From: Leucoraja ocellata
Taxonomy: Eukaryota
Reading direction: 5' to 3'
Length of the DNA: 64,000 nucleotides
NCBI GenBank assembly: GCA_036785375.1
Contig: JAWMAR010000011.1
Location: forward strand, 7,006,001 to 7,070,000
The position numbers are program-made. This document shows positions 1 through 60,000 of this stretch, piece by piece; the stretch's first letter is position 1, and the number at the start of each line of letters is the position of its first letter.

Positions 1-3000
1 CACATTAAACTGCATCTGCCATGCATCTGCCCACTCACACACCTTGTCCAATTCACCCTGCATCCTCATATCATCCTCCTCACAGTTCACACTGCCACCC
101 AGCTTTGTGTCATCTGCAAATTTGCTAATGTTATCCCCAATCACCTCATCTAAATCATCAATGTATATTGTAAATAGCTGCGGTTCCAACACTGAGCCTT
201 GCGATACCCCACTAGTCACTGCCTGCCATTCTGAAAGGGACCCGTTAATCCCTACTCTTTGTTTCCTGTCTGCCAACCAATATTTTATCCATGTCAGTAC
301 CCTACCCCCAATAGCATGCGCTCTAATTTTGCCCACTAATCTTCTATGTGGGACCTGATCTAAGGTTTTCTGAAAGTCCAGGTATACTACATCCACTGGC
401 TCTCCTTTGTCCATTTTCCTAGTTACATACTCAAAAAATTCCAGAAGATTAGTCAAGCATGATTTCCCCTTCGTAAATCCATGCTGACTTGGACTGATCC
501 TGTCATTGCTATGCAAATGTGCCGCTATTTCATCTTTTATAGTTGACTCCAGCATCTTCACCTCTACGGATGTCAGGTTAACTGGTCTATAATTCCGTTT
601 TCTCTCTCCTTTCTTAAAAAGTGGGATAACATTAGCTACCCTCCAATCCACAGGAACTGATCTTGAATCTTTAGAACATTGGTAAACAATTACCAATGCG
701 TCCACGCTATTTTGAGCCATTAAGATTAAGTCGTTAAGTATACTGGGATGCAGATCTTCAGGCCCTGGGTATTTCGGATGAATGATTTTAGTCTTCTTTG
801 AAAAATGCTGTATCCCCACTGAATTCCTGTCATGTGTCCATGCATCAATTCATAAAAGCATATGCAGTGGAAACAGCATTATCCCCTTATACACCACACA
901 CCTGCCCACCCCCTCCATTACTATTTTCCCCATCTGTGGTAGAGGCCACTGGTCCCACATTGATATCAGACATTCAGAACGGGAGTGGAGACAAGCTATC
1001 TTCGAACCTGAGAGACTGTCCAAGAAGAAAGGTGCTATTTCCACCTGCAGGACAATTTTGGAACCTTGGCATTTTCCTGAAAATGACACCAACTATCTTG
1101 AAACAACATCAAGAACACTCGGAGAGTAACAATGCTAAACCACTTCAAAAATGCAATTTACTGATACCATGAGTATGCAACTCTCTGGCCAGTGTACTTG
1201 CAGAATAGGAACTCAAACATTTGATAGGTCCAAGAAACTATGATGTACATGTGAAATTCCCTTATACTGGAGCAATGGCACTCCTTGATTTACAGTGGCT
1301 CGGAAAGAAATTGGGGATTATTTTGAAATTCAGAACTCCTGCGGTTCTATAAACTGTCAATGGTATCCAAACAAAAGGTGCAACAATCTGAATAGCAGTT
1401 ACACATCCCACAAATTGAATCTCCTCAATCATGTATCCCGAAAGCTATGCCGGCACAATACAATATTATGCCCTATCATGGTGCCTGTCTTAACTAACTA
1501 TTGGAATCTTCTACCCTGGATGTTATGCAATTACTTTATTTTACTTTAAACATGATCTGATTTATCTGTGAATAAGAAATGACACCTAGCAAATGTCAGG
1601 TAAGTTAGAAACTAAATAGAAGTTGAAACAATTTATGTAAAGTTATAAAAATCAGAGAAAATAAATGAAAGATTGGCTTTTATGTAAAGAGCCGGAATAC
1701 AAAGAGGGATGGAATACAAAGAGATATTCTTTGGAACATTTTGACAACTGAAATCTTGATGGTCCAAGGGCCAGTGAGAGTCAGTAATCCGATAGAAACC
1801 GGGTCAACAGACAATGGAAGCAAGCATTAGTGCAGCAGAATTTGGATCAGTTCAAGTGGATAATAGGAACAAAGTAGGAAATGAATCACTAAACTGCATT
1901 AGACAAATGTATAATAGAAACATGGAAACTGATGAGCAGCTGAAATGCTGTGGCAGTGGAGAAGGTGTAAGTGTAATTGAGATTAAAATGATTAATATTA
2001 GTGATACAAACAAATATGAGAACATATGAATAAGCAGCAGCCAACAACTCCTCAAACTTGTTCATTCAATGCAATTATTGCCAATGGTTTCCCACCTATC
2101 ATACTAAACTTTCACCCCTTGGTAATTAAGAACCTATATCTGTTTGTAAAAATATTCTGAGACTCTGTTTCTACTGACTTTTGGTAAAGTTTGGACTGGA
2201 GACTTCAATGTAATCAAACTCTTGTAATTCCTGATTGCAAACTAGGTTCAATTGTCTTAAAAGTCATACAGACCTGCTTGGCATCACGAACAGTGAAATC
2301 TAACCTTGAAATGGAGCAGAACAGAATCAGGATGATATATGGAGATGTTTGGGTCATGGCTGGTTGAAACCTAGATTGTACAATGAAGAAACAAGCTCAA
2401 GCTCACATTTTGCCAGCATGGGAATATGTCGACAACTAACAAGGAAAAAGCCCTGGGAGGGAGATCAGCTAGGAATCTTTAATCGTGTACTGTCTGTGGC
2501 AATAAATTTCAGGATGAAATTACAATTAAAGGAAACTACCTGTAATATGATTTCAAATATTAAATATTTGTGAATGGCTACAGCTTGTTCTCCACAGGAA
2601 TTGGAGGCTGGAATCTGAATATGACCCAGAGAATACCAAATTAGATATTGCAGAGAACCAAATAATTGGTCCTCTGCAATATTTACCAGTTGTGTGATTT
2701 CCATGCATAAAATTGATGACACACGAATGGAAATACTTTCATATGTATGCATACATTTGTTTCGCTGTATACACAGATGCATTCAGAGTGTGTGCCTTAG
2801 ATGCTGCTGCAAGCAAGATTTTCATTGTATCTGTATCTCCCATACTTGTGCATCTGACAATAAACTCAACTTGACTCGACTTGACTCGACTTGGTTTCAG
2901 ACTCACCTGCCATAGTGCATAATTGAGGTATAATCATATTTTGTCCCAAGATTATTGGTCCGCAGTTTATCAAAATTAAATGCTTGATCTGTAAAAAAAT

Positions 3001-57000: not shown

Positions 57001-60000
57001 GGGCGTAGGGGATAGAGTCCTTACAGGAAGCAGGGTGGGAAGAAGTGTAGTCCAGATAGTCATGGGAGTCAGTGGGTTTGTAGTAGATGTCAGTCAGTAG
57101 TCTGTTATATCATCTATCATCCAGATCATTAACATATAATGTGAAAAGTAGCGGACCCAACAATCACCCCTATCGAACACCACTAGTTACCAGCCACCAA
57201 TCAGTAAAAAGTCTCCTTACTCCCACTCTTTGCCAGTAAGCCAATCTTCTATTCATGCTAGCACCTTGCCTCTAGTACCAAGGGCTCCTATCTTGTTTTA
57301 GCAGCCTCACATGCCACACCTTCTGCAAATCCAAGTAAACAACATCCATTTACATTTATTTCCTGATTGTTACTTTCTCAAAGAATTCCAATAGATCCGT
57401 CAGGCAAGATGTCCCTTAACAAAACATTGTTGACTTCAGCCTATTTTATCATATGCTTCGAAGTATCCCAAAATTTTCTCAATAGTGGACTCTAAAATCT
57501 TATCAATCACAGAAGTCAGGCTAACCGGCCTATAGATTCCCCTCTTTTGCTTTGCTCCCTTCTTGAACAGTGGAATAACATTTGCAATTTTCCAGTTCTC
57601 TGTGAGCTCTCCTGACTCTCGTGATTCTTGCAAGGTGACTATTAATGCCTCCACAATCTCTGCACCTACCTTTCAGAACCCTGGGGTGTAGTCCACCTGG
57701 TCCAGGTGACGTAGCTACCTTCAGACCTTTCAGCTTCTCAAGCACCTTCACCTTAGTAATACCAACTCCACTAACCTCTGCCCCCTCTCTTGAATATCAG
57801 GTACGTTGCTGGTGTCTTCCACTATGAAGACTAATGCACTAAACATATTCAATTAATCTGCCATTACTTTATTCCCCATTACTACTTCTCCAGTGTCATT
57901 TTACAGCAGTCCAATGTCCAATTTTGCCTCCCTTTTTTTCTTATATATTTGAAGAAACTTTTGCTATCTTTTTTATATTATTTGCTAACTTACCCTCATA
58001 TTTCATCTTTTCTCCTTTTAAGTTAGCTTCTGTTGGTTTTTAAAAGCTTGCCAATCTTCTAGCTTTTCGCTAATCTTTACAATATTATATGTCGTCTTTT
58101 TTAGGTTTAGGCTGTCCTTGACTTTCTTTGTCAGCCAAGGTCACCTCATTCTCCCCTTAGAATCTTTCTTCACTTTGAGTTGAAAAGATCCTTTGCCTCT
58201 CTCCCATTTCCTTAGCTCCATCGATGCTGCCTCACCCGCTAATTAATTGTACCAGTTATGAATTACCTTCTCTTTTAAATTATTATAATATTTTATTAGA
58301 TCTGCTTTAAAATTTGATAATGCATATGCAAGACTTTACATAAAACACAAACCTTGACTTGTTGAATTCACATAGTTCACCTGCACGAAAAGAAATCTGA
58401 GTTACATGAAACGCAAATAAATTAGGTATAAACAAATAATGTTATATCTCATCATCTCTTACCAATGTTGTTATGATGCACCTGAGGAATAAGATAAACA
58501 GAGCTACATTACTGAAGTCCATTTTCTCCTCTCTCCTCTGAGGCAGATTGAGCCAGACCTGAACACACTAAGGGGAAAAACATCAAATAACCATGTGTAA
58601 TTTTACCTAAAAATTATACTGCCTGAAAACATGTAACAACTTAATTGAACTTAAGTTGCAGTAGAGAAGTTGTCTCTTGGCTGATACTGACACTATAAAC
58701 TGCTATACCTCTATCACAAAGGGCAGAGTGACCTAAACCTTCCATTTTATTGCAATTTGAGAAGGAAATTATCAAATCAGTTACCAGAGATACAACATCT
58801 TCAGAAAAATTATCACTAATTCAATTTTTTTGTTGCAGAACTATTAACAAATGATATTAATGACCAAAAGCAAAATATTAACACCGTAGCACCTGCTTTG
58901 AGGCCATGACAACTAGGACTGAGAAGGAACAGTGTAGCACCTGACTTTCAAATTAGGAATGAAGAAGATGATACCAACCATATTGGAAATTTAGAGAAAT
59001 GATAGATAAGTGTAAGGGATGCTTTTTGGGACGTCAAATGCAACAGAAAATTATGCAGTAAATGGCAGAACGTTTAGGAGCATTGATTTGCAGAGGTCTG
59101 CAAGTCCATAAGGTCACTGGAGAATGTGAAAAACTCCACTCAGACCTAATGTGCTTTGTGGAAAGTGTCATGGGGTTAGATAGGCTAGATGCAGGAAGAT
59201 TATTCCCATGTTGGGGAAGTCTAGAACAAGGGGTCACAGTTTAAGGATAAGAGGGAAGTCTTTTAGGACCGAGATGAGAAAATCATTTTTACACAGAGAG
59301 TGGTGAATCTGTGGAATTCTCTGCCACAGAAGGTAGTTGAGGCCAGTTCATTGGCTAGATTTAAGAGGGAGTTAGATGTGGCCCTTGTGGCTAAAGGGAT
59401 CAGGGGGTATGGAGAGAAGGCAGGTATGCGATATTGATTGGGATGATCAGCCATGATCATATGGAATGGCGGTGCAGGCTAAAAGGCCCGAATGGCCTAC
59501 TCCTGCACCTATTTTCTATGTTTCTATGGGGTGAGGATATACTGCGGATATACTGCTTCTGATGTGACACCAAGGATTTTGATGGTGATGGAAGACACAA
59601 TATTGCATGGCAGGTTTAGGTGTATTATTGTCACATGTACCAAGATACTGTGAAAAGCTTTGTTTTGTATGCTATTCAATCAAAGTCAGATTATACAATA
59701 CAGTAAACCTCTTTTTAATGGACCACTTTATAATGAATTATGGATATGGATCTGTTCCCTGCTCGGTTGCCGCAGCTTCCTCCTCCTGTCACTTTCTCCA
59801 GTCAGCCTCTCCGCTGTTGTACTGCTGCCTCCTCCTCCTTCTTCTTCGCTCTGTCCACTCAGCCACTACCCCCCCCCCCCCCCCTCCACCACCTCCTACT
59901 CCTCCTTCTCCCCAGAGTCCGACATGCTCCACGTTGGGAGTGATGGTATGTCAGAGGGGAGCGAGCCCCAAGGTGACTGAGTGCTTCTTGTCTTTGGCAG

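What the first reader, a model, noticed from the sequence alone, without database searches (positions are those of the whole stretch)
2907..58522. Hidden hatching-enzyme-like astacin gene spread over more than 55 kb
Seen in sequence: seven exons with matching phases (0,1,1,1,2,1,2) give 234 open codons, while the ORF track shows only one exon in the right frame. Established: signal peptide, xGD propeptide, RNA site, extra N-terminal Cys pair, HExxHxxGFxH and SxMHY define C6/hatching-enzyme-type astacins, usually compact genes in teleosts. Inference: an intact elasmobranch orthologue or paralogue that could digest egg-case jelly or egg envelope. Introns are 82, 6740, 6058, 20609, 11167 and 10256 nt.
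[Added by the scan's program, not by the reader: the finding's places include an assembly gap (unread letters, written N; its length is only estimated) at 16108 to 16262, 34414 to 34686, 49325 to 49492. Whether the letters on both sides are continuous or in frame is not known: test that first.]
Basis: partly seen in the sequence, partly recalled or inferred. Interest (0 to 1): 0.68.

Follow-up and report, generated by a model that had tools for sequence, protein, structure and literature searches.

The report
Skate hatching-enzyme-type astacin gene, already annotated
The window holds the first seven exons of a real skate zinc-protease gene of the fish hatching-enzyme type, but the gene is already in public annotation and its role in hatching is still untested.

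Summary
On the minus strand, seven exons (58522-58463, 58380-58353, 51612-51535, 45476-45321, 24711-24591, 13423-13245, 2988-2907; 704 nt) have AG/GT borders, matching phases and no stop. The three flagged N gaps lie inside introns 3, 4 and 5. The exons tile relatives without a missing residue, so no coding exon is hidden in a gap.

Searched exon by exon, the exons match Astacin (exon 6: 6e-19). The best solved structures are medaka HCE1 and zebrafish ZHE1.

The gene is not new. It corresponds to RefSeq XP_055505761.1, "astacin-like metalloendopeptidase" of the little skate (566 aa, Astacin plus two CUB domains). C6 astacins with CUB domains in cartilaginous fishes were described in 2022 (PMC8812170).

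The rest of the catalytic domain and the CUB exons lie left of the window.

Orthology to bony-fish hatching enzymes is unresolved: skates carry at least three paralogues and the deep tree nodes have 10-30% support. A hatching role is plausible but untested. Interest is low.

The parts
58463..58522 (-). Exon 1: start codon and 20-residue signal-like peptide
   Evidence: ATG at 58522 and GTAAGA donor. Ungapped identity to N-termini of relatives is 12/20 (P0005) and 8-9/20 (P0008, P0010, P0011, P0012, P0014), against a background mean of 1.18 and maximum of 4, n=532. Hydrophobic 9-mer maximum is 2.74, against 0.43 for the RefSeq N-terminus of P0001.
58353..58380 (-). Exon 2: 28 nt, 9 full codons with a conserved N-x-T/S site
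   Evidence: AG/GT borders. Identical to P0001 residues 55-63 and to the same stretch of P0069. The NST/NTT site is shared by relatives.
52202..52276 (-). Cassette exon used only by RefSeq model P0001; not part of the conserved coding sequence
   Evidence: Matched by 1 of 68 query proteins. AG acceptor and GTAAGT donor, and one in-frame stop in this window. Lies in sequence repeated 4 more times in the window at 71-74% identity. Absent from the P0003 model and from transcript fragment P0069.
51535..51612 (-). Exon 3: propeptide
   Evidence: AG/GTAAGA borders. tblastn with P0001 residues 85-110 gives 25/26 identical, E 1e-9. Junctions to E2 and E4 are seen in P0069. No Pfam hit.
45321..45476 (-). 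Exon 4: end of the propeptide (GD aspartate-switch motif, activation site) and the first ~30 residues of the mature enzyme, with the extra N-terminal Cys pair
   Evidence: Borders. Aligns to chain 1-29 of ZHE1 (3lqb), weakly (E 1.4). 36 of 68 query proteins hit it. Cys at P0001 positions 135 and 142 are shared by 34 of 40 sequences.
24591..24711 (-). Exon 5: catalytic domain, N-terminal subdomain
   Evidence: Borders. Pfam Astacin profile positions 18-51, E 0.025, below the cut-off. No PDB hit on its own. The exon-coded residues are all identical to P0001 (the printed alignment, 43/50, runs into the intron). Skipped in transcript fragment P0069.
13245..13423 (-). Exon 6: zinc-binding motif HExxHxxGFxH followed by ExxRxDRD
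   Evidence: Pfam Astacin 6e-19, 68.9 bits, profile 57-113. 3vtg 2.2e-19 and 3lqb 8.9e-19. 100% identical to P0001.
2907..2988 (-). Exon 7: up to and including the SIMHY Met-turn and zinc-binding Tyr; ends in phase 2 at a GTGAGT donor
   Evidence: Pfam Astacin profile 119-144, E 2.2e-4, 21.4 bits, just below the 22.5 cut-off. 3vtg chain 132-156, E 3.2e-7.
58613..58618 (-). TATA-like hexamer about 95 nt upstream of the ATG (possible proximal promoter; inference only)
   Evidence: Read directly. No test was possible.

Best explanation
The window comes from a skate genome, closest to the little skate Leucoraja erinacea, and is not human. On its minus strand it carries exons 1-7 of a six-cysteine (C6) astacin gene whose full product is a signal peptide, a propeptide, a ~200-residue zinc-protease domain and two CUB domains. 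It is the same gene as RefSeq XP_055505761.1, or a very close allele or sister-species copy.

The 55-kb span is caused by introns filled with mobile-element remnants and tandem repeats. The exon layout is the ancestral hatching-enzyme layout.

How it most likely works:
- Shown from sequence: a hydrophobic signal peptide (exon 1); a propeptide with the GD(I) aspartate-switch motif; an activation site just before the residues that start the mature ZHE1 chain; all three zinc histidines; the catalytic Glu; the family-specific Glu; the Met-turn and the zinc Tyr.
- Inferred from established astacin biochemistry (PMC9848320, passages read): the protein is secreted as a latent zymogen whose propeptide Asp blocks the zinc. 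Cleavage frees a new N-terminus that docks on the family-specific Glu. The enzyme then cuts extracellular protein, and the CUB domains probably help to bind substrate.
- Speculative (about 0.3 for this paralogue): it is made by the embryonic hatching gland and liquefies egg jelly, opening the egg-case slits.
For: - Exon model, splice sites and phases.
- Per-exon family hits.
- Identity with a named protein: exon 6 is 100% identical to P0001. P0001 residues 48-290 map in order on the minus strand. Accession; Astacin plus 2 CUB.
- C6 / hatching-enzyme type: P0001 aligns with 3vtg and 3lqb over chain 1-199 at 182 and 175 bits, against 93-106 bits for astacin, meprins, TLL1 and BMP1. Its best non-cartilaginous hits are frog and basal-teleost hatching-enzyme-like proteins at 48-50% identity, against 35-37% for other teleost C6-like proteins.
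- Conservation: 35 of 35 columns that are at least 90% conserved fall in the window-encoded part and are kept; 5 of the 6 C6 cysteines are in the window and the sixth is in the missing exon.
- 5' end.
- Splicing: fragment P0069 shows the E2-E3 and E3-E4 junctions.
- Gene layout: 9 exons, with the pre-pro-peptide in exon 1 to mid exon 4 (PMC2939575, section 7 read).
- Intron content: 7 of 10 large ORFs carry mobile-element domains; tandem arrays.
- Published class: cartilaginous-fish C6 astacins with CUB domains (PMC8812170; abstract, passages and Discussion read).
Against: - The window lacks the last ~44 residues of the catalytic domain and both CUB domains, so wholeness of this copy cannot be judged.
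- The window is not identical to P0001. There are 5 amino-acid differences, all within about 20 residues of propeptide across the E3/E4 border, while E5-E7 are identical. It may therefore be another individual, a sister species or a very recent duplicate.
- The only spliced fragment found, P0069, skips exon 5, which shifts the frame and stops after 26 codons. Its first 23 residues match neither exon 1 nor the P0001 N-terminus.
- Two RefSeq models (P0001, P0003) start in an upstream exon that I cannot find in the window.
- E1, E3 and E4 have no Pfam hit, and E5 and E7 are below the Pfam cut-off when searched alone.
- Nothing here bears on expression or substrate.
Confidence: 0.88

Rival explanations
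1. The gene is a working C6 astacin-CUB protease but not the hatching enzyme. It would be a paralogue with another extracellular role, in adult tissue or in developmental matrix or signal processing, while one of the neighbouring paralogues (P0010- or P0014-type, or the P0015-17 group) acts in hatching.
For: The little skate has at least three paralogues on one 41.9-Mb contig. Cartilaginous-fish sequences form two strongly supported groups (99% and 100%), with subclades shared by sharks and rays, so the duplications are old. PMC8812170 (passages and Discussion read) reports neo-functionalised hatching-enzyme duplicates in frogs and chicken, places cartilaginous-fish C6 astacins near C6ast4/5, and calls their function unclear.
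Against: Similarity is highest to hatching-enzyme-type proteins. The CUB-bearing architecture is that of tetrapod hatching enzymes, and the published synteny of cartilaginous-fish C6 astacins matches the hatching-enzyme block (PMC8812170). None of this separates the paralogues from one another.
Confidence: 0.45
2. This particular copy is a decaying or non-productive gene (a young pseudogene, or a locus giving only aberrant transcripts).
For: The one spliced fragment found skips exon 5 and is frame-shifted. The cassette exon used by RefSeq carries a stop in this window. There is a cluster of 5 amino-acid differences from P0001 in the propeptide. The 3' third is not visible.
Against: Seven exons have no stop or frameshift and have canonical splice sites. 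35 of 35 conserved columns, all catalytic residues and 5 of 5 visible C6 cysteines are kept. The cassette is exonised repeat sequence absent from relatives. P0069 comes from a P0001-type sequence, not from this window.
Confidence: 0.08
3. The seven pieces are a chance mosaic of open frames, or an astacin of the meprin or BMP1/tolloid type.
For: Exons 1 and 3 have no database-family hit of their own, and exon 2 is only 28 nt.
Against: Per-exon E-values go down to 6e-19 (Pfam) and 2e-19 (PDB), and the exons fall in the correct order along the profile. Meprin and BMP1 score about 75-90 bits lower than HCE1/ZHE1. P0001 has no MAM, TRAF or EGF domain.
Confidence: 0.01

Closest known systems
RefSeq XP_055505761.1, astacin-like metalloendopeptidase, Leucoraja erinacea (P0001)
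   Same: Same gene. Exons 2-7 map in order. E5, E6 and E7 are identical, E3 has 1 difference and E4 has 4. It supplies the missing 3' part: the end of the Astacin domain plus two CUB domains.
   Different: It also includes a 25-residue cassette that is repeat-derived and carries a stop in this window.
Teleost hatching enzymes with solved structures: medaka HCE1 (3vtg) and zebrafish ZHE1 (3lqb)
   Same: End-to-end alignment of the catalytic domain (chain 1-199, 182 and 175 bits). Same mature N-terminus position, extra N-terminal Cys pair, zinc motif and Met-turn.
   Different: The teleost enzymes have no CUB domain, and their genes are compact or intron-less (PMC2939575). This gene keeps all the introns and spans more than 55 kb. 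Their substrate is the ZP egg envelope; the skate substrate is unknown.
Cartilaginous-fish C6 astacins with CUB domains (Nagasawa et al. 2022, PMC8812170)
   Same: Same class: six Cys, astacin consensus, the ancestral exon-intron structure and C-terminal CUB domain(s). Function is stated there to be unclear because expression was not analysed.
   Different: The word 'skate' does not occur in the main text of that paper. Its species lists are in supplements that I could not open, so I cannot say whether this gene was included.
Tetrapod hatching enzymes with one or two CUB domains (frog hatching enzyme / UVS.2 type; 'HECUB2' including chicken ASTL in PMC8812170)
   Same: Astacin plus CUB architecture. 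46-50% identity of the catalytic region to frog proteins P0018 and P0020.
   Different: Orthology is not shown: the node joining them has 10-30% bootstrap support. I could not fetch UVS.2 itself; only automatically named '-like' proteins were available.
Meprins and BMP1/tolloid
   Same: Astacin catalytic fold and motifs; BMP1 also has CUB domains.
   Different: Much lower scores (93-106 bits). No MAM/TRAF or EGF domains in P0001. They lack the N-terminal Cys pair as judged from the alignment start.

Membership tests
Astacin family (MEROPS M12A, Pfam PF01400) | Zinc motif HEXXHXXGXXH with the catalytic Glu | tested here: met
   Found at 13338-13306 on the minus strand. Exon 6 alone scores 68.9 bits against a cut-off of 22.5. 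Motif definition from PMC9848320 (passages read).
Astacin family (MEROPS M12A, Pfam PF01400) | EXXRXDRD directly after the third His, with the family-specific Glu | tested here: met
   Exon 6 reads E-H-C-R-S-D-R-D after the third His.
Astacin family (MEROPS M12A, Pfam PF01400) | SIMHY Met-turn with the zinc-binding Tyr | tested here: met
   SIMHY at 2926-2912. Exon 7 aligns to 3vtg 132-156.
Astacin family (MEROPS M12A, Pfam PF01400) | Propeptide motif FXGDI (aspartate switch) | tested here: met
   Exon 4 has E-H-G-D-I. The G-D-I core is present and the first position is E, not F. Relatives also vary at that position (Y, H, F, Q, E).
C6 astacin / vertebrate hatching-enzyme subfamily | Six conserved Cys, including an extra pair at the mature N-terminus | tested here: met
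   P0001 positions 135, 142, 182, 204 and 224 are encoded in the window. Position 330 lies in the exon beyond the window. Shared by 34-40 of 40 sequences. A seventh Cys at position 245 is shared by 20 of 40.
C6 astacin / vertebrate hatching-enzyme subfamily | Ancestral gene layout: 9 exons, pre-pro-peptide in exon 1 to mid exon 4, protease in mid exon 4 to exon 8 | tested here: met
   Exons 1-3 and the first half of exon 4 encode the signal and propeptide, and the mature chain starts in mid exon 4. Exon 7 ends at chain residue 156 of ~200, leaving one exon's worth. Layout from PMC2939575, section 7. The published intron phases are in a figure that I could not see.
C6 astacin / vertebrate hatching-enzyme subfamily | Closer to hatching enzymes than to astacin, meprin or BMP1 | tested here: met
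   182 and 175 bits against 93-106 bits. Per exon.
C6 astacin / vertebrate hatching-enzyme subfamily | Falls inside the hatching-enzyme clade rather than with the other C6 astacins (C6ast4/5, nephrosin, pactacin, patristacin) | tested here: inconclusive
   Neighbour-joining tree of 40 sequences, 202 columns, 200 bootstraps. Cartilaginous-fish groups have 99-100% support, but the nodes linking them to bony-fish groups have only 10-30%. Names of comparators are automatic '-like' labels. No verified nephrosin, pactacin or patristacin was in the set.
C6 astacin / vertebrate hatching-enzyme subfamily | C-terminal CUB domain(s), as in non-teleost hatching enzymes | tested here: inconclusive
   No CUB exon in the window (0 hits from 68 queries outside the astacin exons). 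The RefSeq counterpart P0001 has two.
C6 astacin / vertebrate hatching-enzyme subfamily | Position in the hatching-enzyme synteny block (syt13, prdm11, tp53i11, tspan18, cd82; PMC8812170) | not testable with these tools
   The window holds no neighbouring host gene that I could recognise. No eukaryote genome collection is on hand.
C6 astacin / vertebrate hatching-enzyme subfamily | [quoted passage not shown] | not testable with these tools
   No expression data are available. PMC13200729 (passages read) reports a catshark hatching-gland cell cluster but does not mention astacin.
Meprin | MAM and TRAF (MATH) domains after the catalytic domain | tested here: not met
   The Pfam scan of P0001 finds only Astacin and CUB.
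Ovastacin (mammalian ASTL), the source of the RefSeq name | Orthology to mammalian ASTL | not tested
   No ovastacin sequence came back from any search. PMC8812170 treats ovastacin apart from the C6 astacins. The RefSeq name is automatic.

The most novel reading that the evidence does not exclude
This subclade of C6 astacin-CUB genes, shared by skates, an electric ray and sharks, encodes the elasmobranch hatching-gland protease whose molecular identity no paper in my searches reports. The enzyme would liquefy the egg jelly and open the egg-case slits at pre-hatching. That would place hatching-enzyme function before the split of cartilaginous and bony fishes, with a change of substrate from the ZP envelope to oviducal-gland jelly.
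Probability: 0.25. Interest if true: 0.55.

Novelty: already known. Interest (0 to 1): 0.2.

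Why it matters
As a gene find it adds little. The gene is in RefSeq, and the class of cartilaginous-fish C6 astacins with CUB domains was published in 2022.

Two modest points remain:
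- The RefSeq models of this gene in two skates (P0001, P0003) appear to be wrong at the 5' end. They lack a signal peptide, and P0001 also includes an exonised repeat as a cassette. A third model, P0002, has taken in intron and mobile-element sequence.
- In the searched library no paper gives the molecular identity of the enzyme that the elasmobranch hatching gland secretes. This gene and its paralogues are the obvious candidates, and the question can be answered with expression data alone.

Tried and rejected
- **Seventh Cys as an oddity:** I suspected the Cys just after the zinc motif was unusual. It is shared by 20 of 40 relatives, including many teleost hatching-enzyme-like proteins, so it is ordinary.
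- **A coding exon hidden in an assembly gap:** rejected, because the exons tile relatives without a hole.
- **A second astacin copy or CUB exons in the window:** none found; 68 query proteins hit only the one exon set plus the cassette and two mobile-element pieces.
- **Exon 8 in bases 1-2906:** no hit.
- **Upstream exons of P0001 or P0069 in the window:** not found. They may lie beyond base 64000 or in the gap at 61996-62123, which I did not fill.
- **Rfam:** no match at gathering thresholds.
- **The 3762-3965 piece:** from recall I took it for the C-terminal part of a BEL/Pao integrase, but Pfam gives no hit, so this stays unverified.
- **Tree:** Neighbour-joining could not resolve the deep nodes.
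- **Selection test (dN/dS):** not possible, because I have no DNA of the relatives. The skate relatives are so close that even read-through intron is identical (11 of 11 residues), so their identity says nothing about constraint.
- **Joined model:** All searches with window sequence were exon by exon, and the database protein P0001 stood in for the full length.

Full report
**1. The observation**

The zinc motif and the Met-turn motif lie on the minus strand at 13338-13306 and 2926-2912. Working from the finding's end points and intron lengths, I placed seven exons:

| Exon | Coordinates | Length |
|---|---|---|
| E1 | 58522-58463 | 60 nt |
| E2 | 58380-58353 | 28 nt |
| E3 | 51612-51535 | 78 nt |
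| E4 | 45476-45321 | 156 nt |
| E5 | 24711-24591 | 121 nt |
| E6 | 13423-13245 | 179 nt |
| E7 | 2988-2907 | 82 nt |

The total is 704 nt. Every internal exon is preceded by AG and each of the seven exons is followed by GT. No exon has a stop in its frame. The six intron lengths are exactly as stated. None of the 42 ORFs of at least 130 aa overlaps an exon, so the gene is indeed invisible in an ORF list.

**2. The gaps**

The N runs are 16108-16262, 34414-34686, 49325-49492 and 61996-62123. The first three lie inside introns 5, 4 and 3, and the fourth lies upstream of the gene. No exon touches a gap.

Exons on either side of each gap keep order, strand and phase. Together they cover P0001 residues 85-290, and the solved chains from residue 1 (3lqb) to residue 156 (3vtg and 3lqb), with no residue missing. 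No coding exon is lost in a gap. The lengths of introns 3-5 are estimates, and continuity of the intron DNA cannot be shown here.

**3. Exon-by-exon homology**

Each exon was searched alone.

- **Pfam Astacin.** E6 scores 6e-19 (68.9 bits, profile positions 57-113). E7 scores 2.2e-4 (21.4 bits, just below the 22.5 cut-off, positions 119-144). E5 scores 0.025 (positions 18-51). E1, E3 and E4 give nothing.
- **Solved structures.** E6 is best to medaka HCE1 (3vtg, 2.2e-19) and zebrafish ZHE1 (3lqb, 8.9e-19), ahead of astacin (7e-14), meprins (about 1e-10) and BMP1 (4e-9); 17 distinct sequences matched at E up to 0.01. E7 matches 3vtg residues 132-156 at 3.2e-7. E4 matches 3lqb residues 1-29 only weakly, E 1.4. 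E5 gives no hit.

The hits run in the right order along the profile and the chains.

**4. What the gene is**

Exon 6, searched for longer proteins, found 3 proteins among 4 candidates:
- P0001, 566 aa, 100% identical, 'astacin-like metalloendopeptidase [Leucoraja erinacea]'
- P0002, 223 aa, 95%, Amblyraja radiata
- P0003, 574 aa, 83%, Rhinoraja longicauda

P0001 is XP_055505761.1 and has one Astacin and two CUB domains. The window is therefore skate DNA, not human.

Residues 291-566 find nothing in the window.

The window is not letter-for-letter the source of P0001. E5, E6 and E7 are identical, E3 differs at 1 residue and E4 at 4, all within about 20 residues of propeptide. Two unnamed-source fragments, P0069 and P0070, are of the P0001 type there. 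The window may come from another individual, a sister species or a very recent duplicate. I cannot tell which.

**5. The 5' end: reader against RefSeq**

P0001 begins with 47 Arg/Gly-rich residues from an upstream exon that I cannot find in the window.

Without gaps it matches the annotated N-termini of relatives in 12 of 20 positions (Narcine P0005) and 8-9 of 20 (P0008, P0010, P0011, P0012, P0014). The background is mean 1.18, maximum 4, n=532. Exon 2 carries an N-x-T/S site that the relatives share.

P0001 also contains a 25-residue cassette (window 52276-52202). This cassette:
- is hit by 1 of 68 query proteins;
- is absent from P0003 and from P0069;
- carries one in-frame stop in this window;
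- lies in sequence that recurs four more times in the window at 71-74% identity, once inside a Tc1/mariner region.

I read it as exonised repeat sequence. A TATA-like hexamer lies about 95 nt upstream of the ATG; this is an inference only.

**6. Evidence of splicing**

P0069 (136 aa, from a 915-nt contig of an unnamed source) reads exon 2 directly into exon 3 and exon 3 into exon 4 at the predicted borders. It then reads exon 4 into exon 6, leaving out exon 5. That shifts the frame and ends 26 codons later. Its first 23 residues match neither exon 1 nor the P0001 N-terminus.

This shows that the locus is transcribed and spliced in a P0001-type genome. It also shows that at least one non-productive isoform exists. 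I did not look for the sample.

**7. Integrity and defining residues**

I aligned 40 relatives over the 202 columns of the catalytic domain. Of these columns, 43 are at least 90% conserved, and 35 of those fall in the window-encoded part. P0001, which is identical to the window there, carries the common residue in 35 of 35, and in 43 of 43 overall.

Five of the six C6 cysteines are encoded in the window; the sixth is in the missing exon. A seventh Cys after the zinc motif is shared by 20 of 40 sequences and is ordinary. The propeptide has the G-D-I core of the FXGDI aspartate-switch motif (motif from PMC9848320, passages read).

**8. Family placement**

- P0001 aligns end to end with HCE1 and ZHE1 (182 and 175 bits), against 93-106 bits for astacin, meprins, TLL1 and BMP1.
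- Its best hits outside cartilaginous fishes are frog and basal-teleost hatching-enzyme-like proteins (48-50% identity). Other teleost C6-like proteins reach 35-37% (29 proteins at E up to 1e-20 among 218 candidates; 41 proteins at E up to 1e-15 among 60).
- The little skate has at least three paralogues on one contig: P0001, P0010 and P0014.
- In a neighbour-joining tree (40 of 40 chosen sequences kept, 202 columns, 200 bootstraps) cartilaginous-fish proteins form two groups, with 99% and 100% support.
- The window-type gene sits in a subclade with Rhinoraja, Narcine and three shark proteins (74%), so the paralogue predates the split of sharks and rays.
- All cartilaginous-fish sequences together get 62%.
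- The nodes that would tie them to bony-fish hatching enzymes, or to other C6 astacins, get 10-30%.

Orthology is unresolved. The sequence names are automatic, and I chose the 40 from the 70 returned proteins by completeness and naming. I left out fragments, unnamed-source proteins and two proteins with 'toxin' in their names.

**9. Literature**

- **PMC8812170** (abstract, found passages and Discussion read). C6 astacin genes exist in cartilaginous fishes, keep six Cys and the ancestral exon-intron structure, and carry CUB domains. They fall near C6ast4/5 in the authors' tree and lie in the hatching-enzyme synteny block. Their function is unclear because expression was not analysed. 'Skate' does not occur in the main text. 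The species tables are in supplements that I could not open.
- **PMC2939575** (passages and section 7 read). The ancestral hatching-enzyme gene has 9 exons. [quoted passage not shown] This matches the layout found here.
- **PMC6219803** (passages read). Enzymes from the hatching gland digest the egg jelly and open the seawater slits; the paper cites Ballard 1993.
- **PMC13200729** (passages read). A catshark hatching-gland cell cluster is marked by XBP1; astacin is not mentioned.
- **Searches.** In four searches (the last returned all 19 papers holding both 'hatching enzyme' and 'shark'), the only paper I judged from its title and abstract to treat cartilaginous-fish C6 astacins is PMC8812170. 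I found none that identifies an elasmobranch hatching enzyme by expression or biochemistry. The library lacks most subscription journals.

**10. Why the gene is so long**

The introns hold mobile-element remnants. Of the 10 largest ORFs tested, 7 carry such domains:
- LTR-retrotransposon reverse transcriptase/RNase H (28619-30364) and integrase (27342-28385)
- LINE-type reverse transcriptase (35975-38044 and 47311-48045)
- Tc1/mariner transposase (22215-24131)
- a reverse-transcriptase zinc-binding domain, zf-RVT (9422-10255)

There are also several tandem arrays. I did not count breaks in these elements.

**11. Verdict**

The finding is a correct hand-built gene model of a real gene. The gene itself is already annotated and belongs to a published class. 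Its mechanism as a secreted, zymogen-activated zinc endopeptidase follows from intact motifs together with established astacin biochemistry. Its role in hatching is a reasonable but untested guess, about 0.25-0.3 for this paralogue.

Noticed in passing
window 52202-52276 (-): A 75-nt cassette exon used only by RefSeq model XP_055505761.1. In this window it has good splice sites but one in-frame stop, and it lies in sequence repeated four more times in the window. It is probably an exonised repeat.
   Followed up: yes
P0069 against window exons 2, 3, 4 and 6: A spliced transcript fragment from an unnamed source skips exon 5 (frameshift, stop after 26 codons) and begins with 23 residues that match neither exon 1 nor the RefSeq N-terminus. 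This points to alternative 5' exons and a non-productive isoform.
   Followed up: partly
window 3762-3965 (-), 25361-25471 (-) and 13213-13244 (-): The Amblyraja RefSeq model XP_032894456.1 (P0002, 'high choriolytic enzyme 2-like') contains read-through intron after exon 6 and two pieces that map to intronic, probably mobile-element, sequence here. That model is a mis-prediction. Pfam gives no hit for the 3762-3965 piece.
   Followed up: partly
window 27342-31574 (-): LTR-retrotransposon pol region in intron 4: integrase core, reverse transcriptase and RNase H, plus an upstream 383-aa ORF with no Pfam hit (possibly gag; inference).
   Followed up: partly
window 22215-24131 (-): Tc1/mariner-type transposase in two ORFs (Sleeping-Beauty-type HTH domains; DDE_3 endonuclease) in intron 4, just upstream of exon 5.
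   Followed up: partly
window 35975-38044 (+), 47311-48045 (+), 42234-42821 (-), 9422-10255 (-): Reverse-transcriptase ORFs of non-LTR type (one of 689 aa), an ORF with the ALKBH8_N domain and one with zf-RVT. These are scattered retroelement remnants in introns 3, 4 and 6.
   Followed up: partly
window 4429-5032: An array of about 12 copies of a 54-nt GC-rich unit, which creates long ORFs on both strands (4267-5145 minus, 4286-5050 plus) with no Pfam hit.
   Followed up: partly
window 14770-15400 and 50289-51188: Long purine-rich (GA) and pyrimidine-rich (CT) low-complexity arrays. They coincide with the strong local GC-skew swings seen in the composition profile.
   Followed up: no
exon 3/4 border, window 45430-45476 and 51535-51545 (-): All 5 amino-acid differences between the window and XP_055505761.1 fall within about 20 propeptide residues, while about 180 other codons are identical. 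P0069 differs again at one of these sites. This may be a fast-evolving or polymorphic stretch just upstream of the activation site.
   Followed up: partly
window 61996-62123: A fourth assembly gap, not mentioned in the finding, lies 3.5 kb upstream of the start codon. The upstream exon used by the RefSeq models could lie in it or beyond base 64000.
   Followed up: no
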